DNA from: Mytilus californianus
Lineage: Eukaryota
DNA: 64,000 bases
Assembly: GCF_021869535.1 (NCBI RefSeq)
Contig: NW_026262734.1
Coordinates: 59,210,001-59,274,000, forward strand
Direction of reading: 5' to 3'
Of this stretch, positions 23,501-38,500 are shown piece after piece. A program made the position numbers. The first letter of the stretch is position 1. Each line of letters starts with the position of its first letter.

Positions 23501-26500
23501 ATCTCATGGCATATCCTATCTAATGGAGGATATGCTGTTTATCCATATCTGAAGGTAAATAATAAATACCAAGGCTACACTGCGTGTGATGCTAGAGGAT
23601 CCAATGGAGTACGAATGTCATGTGGAAATTTGGTGGTTCTTCCATTAAAGAAAGGAGATAAGATTTGGATAGAGGAGTCGACGTCAAATACAAGTGGCCG
23701 TAAAAATGTGCAAGGTGGATTTTCGTCCTTTTCTGCATGGAAAATATGAAATAAAATCTAAAATGCTTCTTATTATTTGTTTATTTTTTCTTAATTGGTT
23801 TAAACAGATTTACAAATCAGCTTAACACAATAAACCTATTATTAAGATAAAAATGAAATGAGCTTCATTTCACTTGGATATATTTAACTCAGGTTAACAT
23901 GATTAATCGTACTGTTTTCTTAATCGAATCAAACAAATGTGTTTATTCTGAATGTTCAATATGAAGATCGTTTGAAGATATTTCCTTCTGACGTAGCAAG
24001 TATATATAAACATTGGTTTTGGAATGAATTTAAGCAAAACTATAGTACATTTGTCACTCCCTCTTTATCGATCATCCGGATTATTGTTATGTGGTTTTCA
24101 AAATGTTAAGAATTACTGATATATAAATAGGAAGATGTGGCATGAGTGCCAATGAGACAACTCTCCATCCAAGTCACAATGCATATATGTATACAAAGTT
24201 AACAATTATACGTCAAAGTACGGCCTTCAACATGGAGCCTTGGCTTACACCGATCAGCAAGCTATAAAGGGCCTTAAATTGACTAGTATAAAAAAATTCA
24301 AACAGGAAAATCAACGGTCTAATCTATATGAAAAACGAGAAACGAAAAACGAGAAACACCTATGATATGCTTTTATTGTAAGCCGATTTATTATTTTGGA
24401 CTAATTTCCAATATTGTTATATATGGATATAAAAGACAAGAGAAATGTACGTAAACATTTAATGAGAAGGAAACATTTTCAATAAGTGTCAATAAAATGC
24501 AACAAATGACATTTAGAGGCAAAATCCAGAAATTGAATACAGAGATGAGACTATAATTAATGTCGAGGTCTTAATAGTCCCATGTTTAAAAATGTTGTTA
24601 ATAAACTAACACATGTAACAGAAGAATCAAAGTCCGATCGTTAACACCTAATTCGAAAAATAACATTTTGATATTACATACAGCATTCCTTAAATGTACA
24701 ATTGTATCAGTGTTTTACGTACATGGTGAACTTACCTTTCCAATAGAACTTTGTTCATTCAAAGTTTCATGTCAAATAAAAGGGATAATACAATTTTATT
24801 ACAAAAGTGTAATCAATGATCATGTTGACCCATATTTCAGTTCTTCTCAAAAGGTGAATTTTAAAAACTACCAAATAAAAATTTAGCATGAAAATATTAA
24901 AATAATGAAATCCGAAGCGAGAAGTTTATCTCTTTTTTTGTTTTTATAAGTTTTAACGTTTAAAAAGTAGATTCCAACACACCCGAATGTAAAAGGTGTA
25001 CGCGACTAACTTTAAAAAAAATTTTCTATAATTTCATTCAAGATAATTTGACAGAAATTTATATCATTAATACATTTATCAAATAGTATTTTTTTAGCCT
25101 TCAACTATAGTAATGCATGGGACGAGGTTTTTGGTCCATGTACACCTAAACGTGCACTCGCAAATACATGGGTAGAAGGCATACTCCCCCCTTTCGATCG
25201 CCAAATAATTTTGAAAATCTCACGTTTTCCAAGTTATCTATACAAATGTTTAGTATATAATCGTCTAATTTTTTTCTCTCGTTGCTCCGCTCGGCAGTAT
25301 AAATGCAATTATCGGGAACTATGCCCTCTTTCAAATATCTTGGATCCGGCCATAATCACAAATTGTATGGCACCAAAAAGAAATTAAACGATTGTCGTTT
25401 GACTTCACCATGTCATCATGACGTCATAAATATTTTAGAACTGACAAAAGGGTCAACACATGTTAATGTATATATCTCTTCTGTTAAATTTGTTTTCACG
25501 TAATATTCTTATTAACATTAATAACAATAATTTTGAGGGCCCGAAAAGAAACATTCAAAATAAAATTCAATTTACTATGCGTTTATATCATACGGTAGAG
25601 AACTATGTCCAATTAATCTAGAAGTTTGTTATTAAAAAACTTTGTAATTTTCGAATTCAAAGGAGGTAATATTACCTGAGTTAACTTTTGAATTATCTCA
25701 ATCCAAATGAAATATAAAATCTCAATAGTTTTCATATAAAACAAATTACGTACTTAAACATATAAATCAAGTTAGTAAATGCAAGCTAATTCGATTATAC
25801 AGTGAAAATATGAACTAGGCATAATAGAAACAACTGAACCTGCGTAACAAATAGTTACTAAAGATTACTTTATTTTCATGTTAATCAACCTTTAAGATTT
25901 GTGACAAAATAATCAAAACATACATGTAGTATAACAAACATAAAATGTATAAATAATAAAAATAAAGCATGACTTTTTGTATAATTACACAAAATAGTTC
26001 AGTTTATAATTCAATTGCGTACCCGCAACTATTAGTACTAATGACTATTTAATAAAGAAAATCATCGTTTCTATTTTTTTGTATTGATGCCAGTTCTATG
26101 GTTTTAAATATGAAACAGAAAAACAATCAAACACATTAAAAACACTTCAGATAACTTTGATTGTTTCGAAAACTTTTCAAAACAAGTGAGGGAGATAATA
26201 TTGAATGATATAAACGAATAACGTATTGTCCTGAAATTGCTACAACTTTGATTCATATCTAGTCGTCTCTACACAGCCAGTATCAAGACTGCCGGGGTTA
26301 ACGATAGATTTTAGCTGCAATTTGTTGTACTGCATTCTTTCTTTGTAAATCTGTTCAAATTCAGCATTTTGTTGCAATGTAAAATAAGATTTCCAGTCGT
26401 CTTCTGTACCTATATAAAACAACAAGATATCATATACATATATTGTTTAAATAAAAATATATGGTGTCTGAAATTTGCCTGTAGGTTTCCTTTATCAATG

Positions 26501-35500: not shown

Positions 35501-38500
35501 TATCTTTACCATAACACACGAATATAACAGAAAAGACGTTAAGACATTTGACAAAATCCGACGAGAATAACAAATATGACATCAAATTAAATACATGAAT
35601 TTGGGATAGAAAAGTACCGTGACACGTCTTATAGCAATGCGGTTTCACACTCAGCAAAACAGTCACAATCGGGAATAAGTCACGTTTGGTAATTATAAGA
35701 TCAGACGACGTAATGACAAACCACAATCTAACACGTGGTAAAAATGTCCTTAGTTAGTTTGGACAAAGACACATCGTATGGATCAACCAATTCGTGATGG
35801 TGTCCGTAAAATTTACGGAGTGTCATTTTTAATCTGTCCTTCTCATAACTTTGTTGGAGCAGTTTCTGCGTAAGGAGCACACTCCTGTGTATGAAGTCCG
35901 TATAGTGTGAACAAGCACGAGAATAACGTATCAATTGAGATATGTAAACACCATACGAAGGGGCAGAGGGTATGTTACTGCTGAGAAATGGGAAATTGAT
36001 AATTGGGAAGTTGAAATCGACCGGTTTATCATAGATTTTCGTGTGAAGTCGTCCATCTGTGTCAATATTGAGGAAAAGATCAAGGTATGAAGCAGTCCTT
36101 CTAGTATCAGTAGTATCCTTAATAAATCCGACAGACGGAAATTCACTGTATACATCATAGTTTGAGCATTTATTTACTAGATCTAAAAAAAACGGACATG
36201 ATCTTGAGAGTGTACATAGTGGCTGTCGTTTGTTGCTGTATATTATATTTGTTTTTCGTTCATTGTTTTGCACATAAATCAGGTTTGAATTCTTTCACAA
36301 TTGTCATTTCGGGGCTTTTTATATCTGTCAATGTGGAATAAGTCTCACTCATTGTTGAGGACCGTACGGTGACCTGTCTGAATTGCAATCATACCACATC
36401 TTCTTTTTTTATGTAATGGAACAAACAAACCAAGAAAATGAGGTCAAGGTCAGACGACCCCTCTCTGGCGGACATTTTTACTTTACAATCACGATATTCT
36501 TCAATATAGCTGACCTTTTACTCACAGTATCTCTGAGAAGAAAAAAACCACAAAAGTTTGACTAAGATATGGAATCACATCTTCTTTTTTTATGTAATGG
36601 AACAAACAAACCAAGAAAATGAGGTCAAGGTCAGACGACCCCTCTCTGGCGGACATTTTTACTTTACAATCACGATATTCTTCAATATAGCTGACCTTTT
36701 ACTCACAGTATCTCTGAGAAGAAAAAAACCACAAAAGTTTGACTAAGATATGTAATGAAACTAAGTGCAAATGAATGATCTTTGACACGTTTAATGCCTA
36801 AGCTTGCAATAATTATATATCCTAAATATTGGCCTATTACTGATAATTTTTGAAAAATCACGTGATGAAAACAATTTAAACGGTTTGTTCTTATTTGAAT
36901 TGTTCCAATTGTACCAGATTAGGGGTAGTGTTGGGCGCTCACAAACATGTTAAATCCCGGCATATCTTTTCTGTGCATCTTCCAAGTAATTAGTCTATAA
37001 ATCAGTGGTTGTCGTTGGCTGTTGCCTGTTAAATATGTTTTTCATTCCTAGTTGTAGTATAAATCAAGCCGTATGTCCGGACCTTTTATAACTAACTATA
37101 TGTTGGTTTTAACTCATTGCAGAAGGTCACACAATGACCCGTAATTGTTAAACTATTTGTTTGCCCTTTTGTGTTTATGTTCTCATTAGCAAAAATACTA
37201 CATATCGTTATTTTTATACGTCGTTTTTAAGCGATTGAATCGTGAACAGTGAAAATAAGTCGAGGACAACTGGTCTATTCTTAATGGAAACTAATCATTA
37301 TACCACATATGGATTATACATATATGCAGCTGGTCTGCACTCTTGAGATATAAAACTTGATACAAAAAGAGCACGCCGTTGCTGGATAAGCGTCTTTATG
37401 TTTGCATCCTGCGATTTTCAGGTAACGTAATACCTCATTTCAAAGTGGTAATACAAAACACAAAAAATTCACAGTTTGGTTGAGACATGATTTTTGCGTG
37501 TAAGAAATCTTTCAAACCTGCCGTTAAACGAAATACCTGATTTCGGATATGAACAAATAATGACATCATTGTCATCGGCATCAAATGACTGCATATGTTT
37601 CCACTGTGAAGGTATATCTGGAATACTTGCTGGAAAATAACGTCCTTCATATTCTTTTACAGTTATGGATCCAGCTAAATCACTATCCGCAACAAAAGTT
37701 TTTAACATTTCTATGAAAATAAATATAACCATATTATTACAATGATTTATCTTAAGTCTTATTACATTGTCGAGAGTCATGGCAACTATAAGGCTTATAA
37801 AATAAGTTGTGGTATGATAACCAATAAGACGACCCTCACAAGTGACCAAATAACTTATGAATTAATAAATATAGATCACCGTACAGCCTTCAACAATGGA
37901 AAAAACCCATACCCAATGGTAAGCTATAAAAAGGCCCCGACATGACTTATGTTAAACAATTCAAACGAGAAAAACAAACTGCCTGATTTATGTACGAAAC
38001 AATAAACGAAAAACAAAGATGATATACAGCAACAAACGACAACCACTAAATTACAAGCACCTGACTTGGGACAGACACATACAAATTGTGGATATGGCAT
38101 ATATGAATAGACCTGTCTTATGACATAATACATTTCTACATAGGCAAGATATTCATGTAATTGTTTTATGATTTTGTTTTATCTGAACATAATTATAGTT
38201 TATTTTATTGAAATTATAAGTAATAACACTTGCCAATGTGACAAATATCATTCACAAATCAACGGACAATGATGTAAGCAACTATAGGTCATCGTGTTGC
38301 CTTGAAAAAATAGCAAACGAAAATGAAAGAACATGGAGTAAATGTACATGGGACAAAATCGCGGACCAATACATAGAAAAATAAAAAAAATATCAAGGAA
38401 CAGGGCTTTTATTCCATCTATTTTATTCTATTTAAGCCCATCTATGCCGTATACTAAGCTATAAAAGATTCCGGTATGACAAAATCCGAAACATTTCAAG

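What the first reader, a model, noticed from the sequence alone, without database searches (positions are those of the whole stretch)
26380..37560. Shared non-canonical substitutions in PAPS-binding and catalytic motifs of both SULTs
Seen in A and B: the 5'-PSB loop is YPKSG-F-HW (canonical YPKSG-T-T/H-W); the catalytic His context is VL-G-SH (canonical IK(T/S)H, with the Lys lost); FNDW replaces YGSW; the C-terminal motif is RKG(T/I)E-D-DWK instead of RKGxxGDWK. The PSB Lys, 3'-PB Arg/Ser (RDPRAVAIS), catalytic His and YED are retained, and both ORFs are intact. Inference: altered cofactor handling or a repurposed SULT-fold enzyme (precedent: insect retinol dehydratase is SULT-fold), consistent with a new compartment.
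Basis: partly seen in the sequence, partly recalled or inferred. Interest (0 to 1): 0.68.

Follow-up and report, generated by a model that had tools for sequence, protein, structure and literature searches.

The report
Divergent tandem sulfotransferase gene pair
Two neighbouring genes encode sulfotransferase-family enzymes that share a few unusual changes near the active site and a tail that looks like a peroxisome address, but most of the cofactor pocket is ordinary and their activity is untested.

Summary
Two minus-strand genes (A 26240-37708, B 44280-56534), each with 5 coding exons and GT-AG introns, encode 315- and 314-aa Sulfotransfer_1 proteins. After splicing both read YPKSG-FHW, RVLGSH, RDPRA(V/I)A(I/V)S, VLFNDW, (S/F)YED and RKG-(T/I)EDDWK.

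They are one tandem duplication (262/311 aa identical, dS 0.18, dN/dS 0.42), so the shared changes are one ancestral event, not two.

The changes differ in how unusual they are:
- **Lys→Gly before the catalytic His** has precedents. Active mouse SULT7A1 has Pro there and SULT2A8 has Ala.
- **The P-loop His** matches catalytic His51 of SULT7A1 and His48 of SULT2A8.
- **FNDW** lies at the acceptor pocket, not the nucleotide site.
- **Thr→Phe in the P-loop and Gly→Asp in GxxGxxK** had no counterpart in any SULT I could see.

The 3'-phospho-adenosine contacts are kept. Thr→Ala at the Phe position leaves Arabidopsis SOT18 partly active.

Most likely these are still PAPS-dependent enzymes with a remodelled acceptor and transfer site, not a new cofactor. 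A conserved 21-aa tail ending in SKL suggests peroxisomal import.

How common these residues are in invertebrate SULTs stayed unchecked, because the large protein databases were closed. The spliced protein was not joined, searched or folded.

The parts
37537..37708 (-). Gene A coding exon 1 (Met to the first base of the Gly codon of YPKSG). It carries the PSB-loop Lys-Ser-Gly.
   Evidence: Searches give the coordinates and the GT donor. One search aligns residues 9-58 to residues 5-51 of human SULT1C2 (3bfx, E 7.5e-6), so the N-terminus is complete.
33758..34078 (-). Gene A coding exon 2. It holds FHW (the rest of the P-loop), RVLGSH (catalytic His with Gly in place of Lys) and RDPRAVAIS (3'-phosphate Arg and Ser).
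   Evidence: PF00685, 66 bits against a cut-off of 22, profile positions 60-134; 40 PDB SULT sequences at E<=0.01, best mouse SULT7A1 (5x2b, E 1e-16).
30025..30128 (-). Gene A coding exon 3. It holds VLFNDW (in place of VLYGSW) and SYED-AK (adenine Tyr and the following Lys).
   Evidence: PF00685 positions 135-166, E 0.003. One search gives the alignment to SULT2A1, which is weak on its own (E 0.6) but collinear with the other exons.
28046..28226 (-). Gene A coding exon 4. It holds NTKF (the T-x-F cofactor contacts), the variable loop 3, and it ends in YRK plus the first base of the Gly codon.
   Evidence: PF00685 positions 167-204. One search gives alignments to SULT7A1 (STSFSEMK) and SULT1B1 (HTSFEVMK). 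One search shows no Cys in this exon in A or B.
26240..26409 (-). Gene A coding exon 5. It holds (G)TEDDWK, the partly kept dimer motif KSYFTLQQNA, and a 21-aa tail IVNPGSLDTGCVETTRYESKL followed by TAG.
   Evidence: PF00685 positions 227-252; the alignment to SULT1B1 ends at query residue 35, which is residue 296 of 298. One search gives the tail comparison.
56363..56534 (-). Gene B coding exon 1.
   Evidence: It is 53/57 aa identical to A.
54708..55025 (-). Gene B coding exon 2. It holds FHW, RVLGSH and RDPRAIAVS.
   Evidence: PF00685, 66.1 bits, positions 57-134. It is 84/105 aa identical to A, with a one-codion gap.
52983..53086 (-). Gene B coding exon 3. It holds VLFNDW and FYED.
   Evidence: It is 31/34 aa identical to A.
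51275..51455 (-). Gene B coding exon 4. It holds KTKF, loop 3 and YRK plus the first base of the Gly codon.
   Evidence: PF00685 positions 167-224, E 6.5e-4. It is 42/60 aa identical to A.
44280..44449 (-). Gene B coding exon 5. It holds (G)IEDDWK and a tail ending in KYESKL followed by TAG.
   Evidence: It is 52/55 aa identical to A.

Best explanation
A and B are a tandemly duplicated pair of cytosolic-type sulfotransferase (Sulfotransfer_1) genes of a divergent, lineage-specific subfamily. The genome is probably a bivalve's; that is an inference from AT-rich DNA, long introns and a neighbouring C1q-domain ORF.

**Shown.**
- Both genes are intact and under purifying selection.
- Both keep the catalytic His, the P-loop Lys-Ser-Gly, the adenine-stacking Trp, the 3'-phosphate Arg and Ser, the Tyr..Lys of helix 9, T-x-F and R-K-G.

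**Inferred.**
- They still bind PAPS and transfer sulfate to a small-molecule acceptor.
- The shared substitutions cluster at the sulfuryl-transfer and acceptor end of the cleft, not at the nucleotide end. These are Thr→Phe and Thr→His in the P-loop, Lys→Gly two residues before the catalytic His, and Tyr-Gly-Ser→Phe-Asn-Asp on the acceptor wall.
- Their likeliest effect is a changed acceptor class or geometry: a non-phenolic acceptor, and a second His beside the sulfuryl group as in mouse SULT2A8, SULT2A3 and SULT7A1.
- PAPS is probably held somewhat more weakly, because one hydroxyl-to-5'-phosphate bond is lost.
- The Gly→Asp lies just after the R-K-G loop, at the start of the DWK helix. It is more likely structural than a loss of cofactor binding.
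- The conserved 21-residue tail ending in Ser-Lys-Leu probably acts as a PTS1 peroxisomal import signal. This is not tested.
For: **Gene structure and family.**
- PF00685 matches are collinear over exons 2-5, at profile positions 57/60-134, 135-166, 167-204/224 and 227-252 of 255.
- Exon 2 matches 40 PDB SULT sequences at E<=0.01.
- Only two copies of each exon are in the window (tblastn).

**Duplication and selection.**
- Introns and flanks are collinear and similar at 67-91%.
- Summed over exons, Sd is 30.5 of 188 synonymous sites and Nd is 54.5 of 745 non-synonymous sites. That gives dS 0.183, dN 0.077 and dN/dS 0.42, Fisher p 5e-4.
- Differences between the copies concentrate in exons 2 and 4, which hold the substrate loops: 39 of 165 aa, against 10 of 146 in exons 1, 3 and 5 (p 4e-5).

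**Kept cofactor contacts.** See, set against the residue lists in PMC8134075, PMC1847840 and PMC5482895.

**Precedents.**
- SULT7A1 reads ..AIPTH.. and SGTHW. Its His51 and His94 are required for activity (alignments; PMC10939482).
- SULT2A8 uses His48 as catalytic base.
- AtSOT18 Thr96Ala keeps 122 of 1624 and 536 of 1618 pkat/mg on two substrates and none on a third.
- The Lys before the His is described as not essential for catalysis in one mouse SULT, and as possibly favouring phenolic substrates (PMC7690957).

**Tail.**
- The alignment to SULT1B1 ends 21 residues before the stop.
- 2 of 63 nt differ between A and B, against 60 of 311 columns in the 3' flank. Binomial p 1.7e-4, Fisher p 7e-4.
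Against: - No activity, binding or localisation data exist for these proteins.
- Thr→Phe is bulkier than the Thr→Ala that was tested in AtSOT18, and it could block the 5'-phosphosulfate site.
- In AtSOT18, Ala at the second Thr position abolished activity. That His works there is known only from SULT7A1 and SULT2A8, both of which keep the first Thr.
- The GxxGxxK motif is described as crucial for PAPS binding (PMC7690957). No natural SULT with Asp at the second Gly was seen among the 4 distinct proteins shown.
- SULT4A1 shows that one or two pocket changes can abolish PAP binding.
- dN/dS of 0.42 is only moderate constraint.
- If the proteins are peroxisomal, no route for PAPS into peroxisomes is described. 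A peroxisomal cofactor review mentions PAPS 0 times.
- Exons 3, 4 and 5 match Pfam or PDB only weakly when taken alone.
- The full spliced protein was not modelled.
Confidence: 0.58

Rival explanations
1. The pair are non-catalytic SULT-fold proteins like SULT4A1. Under this reading Thr→Phe in the P-loop plus Gly→Asp in GxxGxxK have abolished PAPS binding, and the proteins survive as small-molecule binding or regulatory proteins.
For: - SULT4A1 is conserved yet does not bind PAP, because of only one or two pocket changes (PMC1847840).
- The two odd residues sit in motifs described as needed for PAPS binding.
- No SULT with Phe or Asp at these positions was seen.
- dN/dS of 0.42 fits a protein that is still selected.
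Against: - The specific SULT4A1 lesions are absent. Trp and R-K-G are kept.
- The catalytic His, the P-loop Lys and the Ser that positions it are all kept. A mere binding protein has little reason to keep them.
- Thr96Ala in AtSOT18 stays partly active.
Confidence: 0.2
2. The pair are peroxisomal SULT-fold enzymes that use another ligand with a 3',5'-ADP core instead of PAPS, such as PAP, CoA or an acyl-CoA. The kept 3'-phospho-adenosine site and the remodelled 5' side would reflect that switch.
For: - The tail ends in -SKL and is constrained.
- PAP is made inside peroxisomes from CoA by Nudix hydrolases, and SLC25A17 carries CoA and PAP. PAPS is not mentioned in that review (PMC7463629).
- The changes lie at the 5' and transfer end, while the 3'-phosphate and adenine contacts are intact.
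Against: - This is pure inference. I know of no SULT-fold enzyme that uses CoA.
- The catalytic His and the P-loop Lys, which serve sulfuryl transfer, are kept.
- Peroxisomal import is itself unproven.
Confidence: 0.06
3. The pair are decaying duplicates. The odd residues are damage in genes on the way to becoming pseudogenes within a large, fast-turning-over SULT family.
For: - Bivalve SULT families are large and duplicate often.
- Constraint is only moderate.
- The introns are littered with repeats.
Against: - Both copies keep open frames of 315 and 314 codons and all 8 GT-AG junctions since a duplication with dS of 0.18.
- dN is below dS with p 5e-4.
- The odd residues are identical in both copies, so they predate the duplication and have been kept.
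- The tail is more conserved than the flanking DNA.
Confidence: 0.06

Closest known systems
Mouse SULT7A1 (PDB 5X2B), the C-sulfonating sulfotransferase
   Same: - It is the best PDB match for exon 2 (E 1e-16, about one third of aligned residues identical).
- It has His at the second P-loop position (SGTHW; His51, needed for activity).
- It lacks the Lys before the catalytic His (AIPTH).
- It keeps the Arg and Ser of the 3'-PB motif and T-S-F (PMC10939482 passages).
   Different: - SULT7A1 keeps Thr after the P-loop Gly.
- Its third catalytic residue, Cys234, has no counterpart. Exon 4 of A and B holds no Cys.
- Identity is well under the 45% used to define a SULT family.
- Whether SULT7A1 has Gly at the GxxG position was not shown to me.
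- No -SKL tail is reported for it.
Mouse SULT2A8 (PDB 7D1X) and SULT2A3
   Same: - His48 at the same P-loop position acts as catalytic base in SULT2A8.
- SULT2A3 has both His48 and the canonical His, as A and B do.
- SULT2A8 also lacks the Lys before the catalytic position (..LMASL..).
   Different: - SULT2A8 has Leu in place of the canonical catalytic His. A and B keep the His.
- SULT2A8 keeps Thr47, which contacts PAP.
- They belong to different families. The exon 2 match has E 2e-11.
Human SULT4A1 (PDB 1ZD1), an orphan that does not bind PAP
   Same: It is a conserved SULT-fold protein with changes in the cofactor pocket. It shows that one or two residues can decide PAP binding (PMC1847840 passages).
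   Different: Its lesions are Trp→Leu at the adenine-stacking position and a shortened loop without the Lys of R-K-G. A and B have neither.
   Same: It is a SULT-fold enzyme from an invertebrate with an unusual net reaction.
   Different: - It is PAPS-dependent and acts through a retinyl-sulfate intermediate (PMC9356239 passages), so it is not a case of a changed cofactor.
- It was not among the 40 PDB sequences that exon 2 matched at E<=0.01.
- Its motifs were not seen.
Expanded bivalve SULT families
   Same: [quoted passage not shown]
   Different: - That paper's text says nothing about motif variants or C-terminal signals.
- That this window is from a bivalve is an inference.

Membership tests
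Cytosolic sulfotransferases (Pfam Sulfotransfer_1, PF00685) | Significant, collinear match to the family profile | tested here: met
   exon 2 of A and B scores 66 bits against a cut-off of 22. Exons 3-5 are each below the cut-off but follow on at profile positions 135-166, 167-204/224 and 227-252; 40 PDB SULT sequences match at E<=0.01.
Cytosolic sulfotransferases (Pfam Sulfotransfer_1, PF00685) | 5'-PSB loop, given as TYPKSGT in PMC7690957, with Lys, Ser, Gly, Thr and the following Trp | tested here: not met
   Lys, Ser, Gly and Trp are present. The Thr after Gly is Phe in both genes, and the next residue is His. So this feature is met in part only.
Cytosolic sulfotransferases (Pfam Sulfotransfer_1, PF00685) | Catalytic His in region II | tested here: met
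   the His of RVLGSH aligns with the His of SULT1C2, SULT1A3 and SULT7A1.
Cytosolic sulfotransferases (Pfam Sulfotransfer_1, PF00685) | 3'-PB motif Arg...Ser (RNxxDxxVS) | tested here: met
   the R and S of RDPRAVAIS align with the R and S of RNPKDVAVS. The Asn is Asp and the Asp is Ala.
Cytosolic sulfotransferases (Pfam Sulfotransfer_1, PF00685) | GxxGxxK motif (RKGxxGDWK) | tested here: not met
   R-K-G, the first Gly and the Lys are present. The second Gly is Asp in both genes. All 4 distinct proteins shown have Gly.
Cytosolic sulfotransferases (Pfam Sulfotransfer_1, PF00685) | PAPS-dependent sulfuryl transfer | not testable with these tools
   This needs a recombinant enzyme assay.
SULT7A1-type C-sulfonating enzymes | Catalytic set His51, His94 and Cys234 (PMC10939482) | tested here: not met
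   The His51 and His94 equivalents are present (the numbering offset was worked out from the alignment). There is no Cys anywhere in exon 4 of A or B.
SULT2A8-type 7-alpha-OH sulfotransferases | P-loop His as base together with loss of the canonical His (Leu99) | tested here: not met
   The P-loop His is present, but the canonical His is retained. This resembles the 'dual His' state the paper describes for mSULT2A3.
SULT4A1-like proteins that do not bind PAP | Adenine-stacking Trp replaced, and the Lys of R-K-G lost | tested here: not met
   Trp (FHW) and R-K-G are both present.
PTS1-targeted peroxisomal matrix proteins | C-terminal tripeptide of the SKL type. The consensus [SAC][KRH][LM] is recalled, not taken from a call. 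| tested here: met
   both genes end ...YESKL followed by TAG, on a 21-aa extension past the SULT core.
PTS1-targeted peroxisomal matrix proteins | Actual import into peroxisomes | not testable with these tools
   No predictor or localisation data were available. Glu at position -4 may weaken the signal (recalled).

The most novel reading that the evidence does not exclude
The pair founds a peroxisome-resident branch of the SULT fold. The conserved -SKL tail imports the protein. The remodelled 5' side (Phe and His in the P-loop, no Lys before the catalytic His, Asp in GxxGxxK), next to an intact 3'-phospho-adenosine site, reflects use of a 3',5'-ADP-type ligand that is actually present in peroxisomes, such as PAP, CoA or an acyl-CoA, instead of PAPS.

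A milder version is a normal PAPS-dependent enzyme that carries out the first known sulfation inside peroxisomes. I rate that at about 0.25-0.3. No paper on a peroxisomal cytosolic-type SULT turned up in the searches.
Probability: 0.06. Interest if true: 0.85.

Novelty: new variant of a known kind. Interest (0 to 1): 0.38.

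Why it matters
If the proteins are active, they show that the 'invariant' Thr of the sulfotransferase P-loop and the second Gly of GxxGxxK can be replaced. They would also add a natural two-His active site to the few known cases, SULT2A8 and SULT7A1, in which that His enables unusual reactions.

If the -SKL tail works, sulfation, or a SULT-fold activity, would be placed in peroxisomes. No PAPS supply is described there.

If they are inactive, they would be an invertebrate counterpart of the SULT4A1 puzzle.

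As it stands, this is a divergent pair in a gene family that duplicates and diverges freely. How rare its residues are among invertebrate SULTs is unknown.

Tried and rejected
- **Fetching PDB sequences by id** was not possible. Motif sampling was therefore limited to the 5 alignments printed per PDB search.
- **A 40-aa query of the exon 2 start alone** hit no SULT: 2 unrelated chains, E above 1. I then used the contiguous genomic frame that happens to read I-S-G just before FHW, so that the alignment would span the Phe position. This is unaltered window DNA, not a joined model.
- **A scan of the prokaryotic genome collection** with the exon 2 alignment matched 107 stretches by pattern, but none was a relative by tblastn. 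I did not use the second scan, because a back-translated P-loop pattern would give hundreds of chance matches by my estimate.
- **The ESM Atlas** failed twice. On the third try it only confirmed the family: 27 of 30 hits were Sulfotransfer_1, best score 0.95. It gave no alignment, so it told nothing about the motifs.
- **Searching papers for 'PKSGTTW'** found 0 papers.
- **The 1995 mutagenesis paper on GxxGxxK** could not be opened by DOI or by a guessed PMC id. What I say about it is recall and is not used as evidence.
- **A third SULT copy or pseudo-exons in the window:** none found.
- **Alternative splice choices that would restore Thr or Gly:** none fit.
- **Membership in the SULT7A1, SULT2A8 or SULT4A1 types:** rejected, see the membership test.
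- No search, fold or cofactor model was made of the full spliced protein.
- **Closed and not used:** The search for homologous proteins, the search of protein representatives, metagenome contigs, viral contigs, and paper supplements.

Full report
**What is there.** The window is AT-rich at about 29-37% G+C. The region holds short conserved coding blocks separated by kilobases of repeat-rich DNA, which is the look of an animal genome with long introns.

Stop-to-stop frames, motif and peptide location and the junction sequences define two genes on the minus strand. Each has five coding exons, and all eight introns are GT-AG.
- Gene A: 37708-37537, 34078-33758, 30128-30025, 28226-28046, 26409-26240. 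This is 948 nt with the stop, 315 aa.
- Gene B: 56534-56363, 55025-54708, 53086-52983, 51455-51275, 44449-44280. This is 945 nt, 314 aa.

The finding's coordinates cover A only. Both genes have a YAG one or two bases before the ATG, so a non-coding 5' exon probably lies upstream.

**Family.** Exon 2 of either gene matches Pfam Sulfotransfer_1 at 66 bits, against a cut-off of 22. Exons 3, 4 and 5 are individually below the cut-off but continue the same profile without a gap, at positions 57/60-134, 135-166, 167-204/224 and 227-252 of 255.

Against the PDB:
- Exon 2 matches 40 distinct SULT sequences at E<=0.01.
- Exon 1 aligns from its residue 9 to residue 5 of human SULT1C2 (E 7.5e-6), so the N-terminus is complete.
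- Exon 5 matches 32 SULT sequences and 3 unrelated chaperones at E<=10.
- Exon 3 and exon 4 match SULTs only weakly (best E 0.59 and 0.06).

The ESM Atlas look-up merely agreed on the family.

**The observation.**
- YPKSG|FHW, where the Gly codon is split G|GT.
- RVLGSH.
- RDPRAVAIS in A and RDPRAIAVS in B.
- GK|VLFNDW.
- SYED in A and FYED in B.
- RKG|TEDDWK in A and RKG|IEDDWK in B.

The printed PDB alignments show the canonical counterparts:

| Position | Characterised SULTs | A and B |
|---|---|---|
| P-loop after Gly | SGTHW (mouse SULT7A1, mouse SULT2A8 = 7D1X, confirmed); TTW (human SULT1C2) | SGFHW |
| Two before the catalytic His | Lys (SULT1C2, SULT1A3); Pro (SULT7A1); Ala (SULT2A8) | Gly |
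| Acceptor-wall segment | VLYGSW (SULT2A1); YGSW (SULT1E1) | VLFNDW |
| GxxGxxK | G-x-x-G-DWK (SULT1B1, SULT1C2, 8xgz, SULT1C3) | G-T-E-D-DWK |

**Not two independent sightings.** A and B are a collinear tandem duplication whose introns and 3' flank still align at 67-91% identity. No third copy or stray exon is in the window. The proteins are 262/311 identical.

Summed over exons, without joining sequences:
- Sd is 30.5 of 188 synonymous sites and Nd is 54.5 of 745 non-synonymous sites.
- This gives dS 0.183, dN 0.077 and dN/dS 0.42. dN is below dS with Fisher p 5e-4.

So the unusual residues arose once, before the duplication. Both copies have kept them under moderate purifying selection. Amino-acid differences between the copies concentrate in exons 2 and 4, which carry the substrate loops: 39 of 165, against 10 of 146 in exons 1, 3 and 5 (p 4e-5). 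This is the usual pattern for SULT paralogues that diverge in acceptor specificity.

**How unusual each change is.**

1. **Lys→Gly two residues before the catalytic His** is not exceptional.
   - Two of the four distinct proteins shown at that position lack the Lys, and both are active PAPS-dependent enzymes: SULT7A1 with Pro and SULT2A8 with Ala (PMC10939482 and PMC8134075, passages read).
   - A paper on a fungal SULT describes this Lys as not essential in a mouse enzyme, and as possibly favouring phenolic acceptors (PMC7690957, passages).

2. **The His in FHW has functional precedents.**
   - Counting along the alignment, with catalytic His94 as anchor, it is the equivalent of SULT7A1 His51. 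The H51A mutant is inactive.
   - It is also the equivalent of SULT2A8 His48, the catalytic base for 7-alpha-OH sulfation. The same paper notes that mouse SULT2A3 has both histidines. A and B also have both.

3. **FNDW for YGSW is not a cofactor motif.**
   - By position-counting, it falls on SULT2A8 residues 158-163. Of these, Tyr159 and Phe160 are listed among acceptor-pocket residues.
   - This mapping assumes no gap and is an inference.

4. **Thr→Phe directly after the P-loop Gly** is the first truly odd change.
   - All 3 distinct proteins shown have Thr.
   - Thr47 of SULT2A8, Thr96 of Arabidopsis SOT18 and Thr70 of an Anopheles SULT are each described as contacting the 5'-phosphate.
   - The motif is quoted as TYPKSGT.
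   - AtSOT18 Thr96Ala still has 122 of 1624 and 536 of 1618 pkat/mg on two substrates and none on a third. Ala at the next Thr abolishes activity.

5. **Gly→Asp at the second Gly of GxxGxxK** is the second odd change.
   - All 4 distinct proteins shown have Gly.
   - The residues named as absolutely conserved PAPS contacts in that loop are the Arg and the first Gly (PMC1847840), and both are present.

**The rest of the cofactor pocket is ordinary.** Of the 11 PAP-lining residues listed for SULT2A8 (Lys44, Ser45, Thr47, Trp49, Arg121, Ser129, Tyr184, Lys188, Met243, Arg244, Lys245), 9 are identical in A and B. This was mapped by motif and by the exon alignments. Thr→Phe and Met→Tyr differ.

The Thr and Phe of T-x-F are kept: NTKF in A and KTKF in B, against STSF and HTSF. 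The two lesions that explain why SULT4A1 cannot bind PAP, loss of the stacking Trp and loss of the Lys within R-K-G, are both absent.

**Interpretation.** The changed residues sit at the sulfuryl-transfer and acceptor end of the cleft, while the 3'-phospho-adenosine end is intact. I therefore think the likeliest reading is as follows.
- This is a still PAPS-dependent sulfotransferase subfamily with a remodelled transfer site: two histidines, no Lys, and a hydrophobic Phe where a hydroxyl normally touches the 5'-phosphate and the leaving sulfate.
- It probably has a changed, non-phenolic acceptor class, perhaps with weaker PAPS binding.
Retinol dehydratase is described as PAPS-dependent, acting through a retinyl-sulfate intermediate (PMC9356239, passages).

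The rivals are a SULT4A1-like protein that no longer binds PAPS, a peroxisomal protein using another 3',5'-ADP-type ligand, and decaying duplicates.

**The tail.**
- The alignment of exon 5 to SULT1B1 ends at query residue 35, two residues before the end of that protein. A and B run on for 21 more residues, IVNPGSLDTGCVETT(R/K)YESKL, and then stop.
- Only 2 of 63 nt differ between the copies. In the 3' flank 60 of 311 alignment columns differ, and in the intron just upstream 110 of 320 differ. Binomial p is 1.7e-4 and Fisher p is 7e-4.
- An -SKL end fits the PTS1 peroxisomal signal. That consensus is recalled, not taken from a call.
- Searches for papers on a peroxisomal cytosolic-type SULT found nothing relevant. 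One search gave 1 unrelated paper. One search found 9 papers and listed 8, none on this by title or abstract start. I read passages of one of them, the firefly genome paper.
- A review of peroxisomal cofactor transport describes CoA and PAP crossing the membrane and PAP arising there from CoA. It never mentions PAPS (PMC7463629, passages).
- This is why the tail makes the boldest reading worth stating, though import is untested.

**Context.**
- A C1q-domain ORF lies at 23315-23749.
- Together with the base composition and the gene structure, this fits a bivalve. That is an inference.
- One genome paper reports 83, 26 and 31 SULT genes in three bivalve species (PMC5700196, passages). Divergent tandem SULT pairs are therefore expected there.

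**What stayed unchecked.**
- A fold of the spliced protein, with or without cofactor.
- Supplementary alignments and trees that bear directly on this: Figs S1, S2 and S10 of the SULT7A1 paper, Fig. S2 of the SULT2A8 paper, and Supplementary Fig. 23 and Data 10 of the scallop paper.
- Expression and localisation.
- The classic mutagenesis of GxxGxxK, which I could not open.

**Verdict.** This is a variant of a known enzyme family, with two residue changes I could not match in any characterised member and a constrained PTS1-like tail. It is of moderate interest until a census or an assay shows whether the variant is rare or functional.

Noticed in passing
window 26243-26305 (-) and 44283-44345 (-): Both SULT genes carry a 21-aa C-terminal extension past the alignable SULT end. 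It ends in -SKL, which looks like a PTS1 signal. Only 2 of 63 nt differ between the copies, against 60 of 311 columns in the 3' flank.
   Followed up: partly
window 23315-23749 (+): A 144-aa open frame matches the C1q domain (PF00386, E 4e-13). It is a likely exon of a C1q-domain gene next to the SULT pair and fits a bivalve-like genome.
   Followed up: partly
window 36395-36756: A 181-bp unit is repeated twice at 99% identity inside intron 1 of gene A.
   Followed up: no
window about 30200-32340: There is a direct duplication of about 1.2 kb inside intron 2 of gene A. Nearly identical frames lie at 30207-30344 and 31434-31571 (+), and at 30990-31142 and 32206-32334 (-).
   Followed up: no
window about 17251, 38070 and 45010 (-): An interspersed repeat translates to ...CPKSGACN..VVVVCCC... 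Its 'PKSG' is a chance look-alike of the SULT P-loop and not a third SULT.
   Followed up: partly
window 35728-36294 (-), 57578-57931 (+), 58546-58998 (+): Long open frames in intron 1 of A and upstream of B have no Pfam match. They are probably remains of mobile elements. The 58-62 kb stretch has a strong positive GC and AT skew.
   Followed up: partly
window 37709-37720 (-) and 56535-56545 (-): An acceptor-like YAG lies one or two bases before the ATG in both genes. This suggests a non-coding 5' exon further upstream, which I did not look for.
   Followed up: no
window 26360-26392 (-) and 44400-44432 (-): The animal SULT dimer motif KxxxTVxxxE reads KSYFTLQQNA in A and KTYFTLQQNA in B. Val is Leu and the final Glu is Ala (motif from PMC7690957). 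The proteins may therefore be monomers, as is proposed for SULT7A1.
   Followed up: no
window 8646-8825: A run of 180 N.
   Followed up: no
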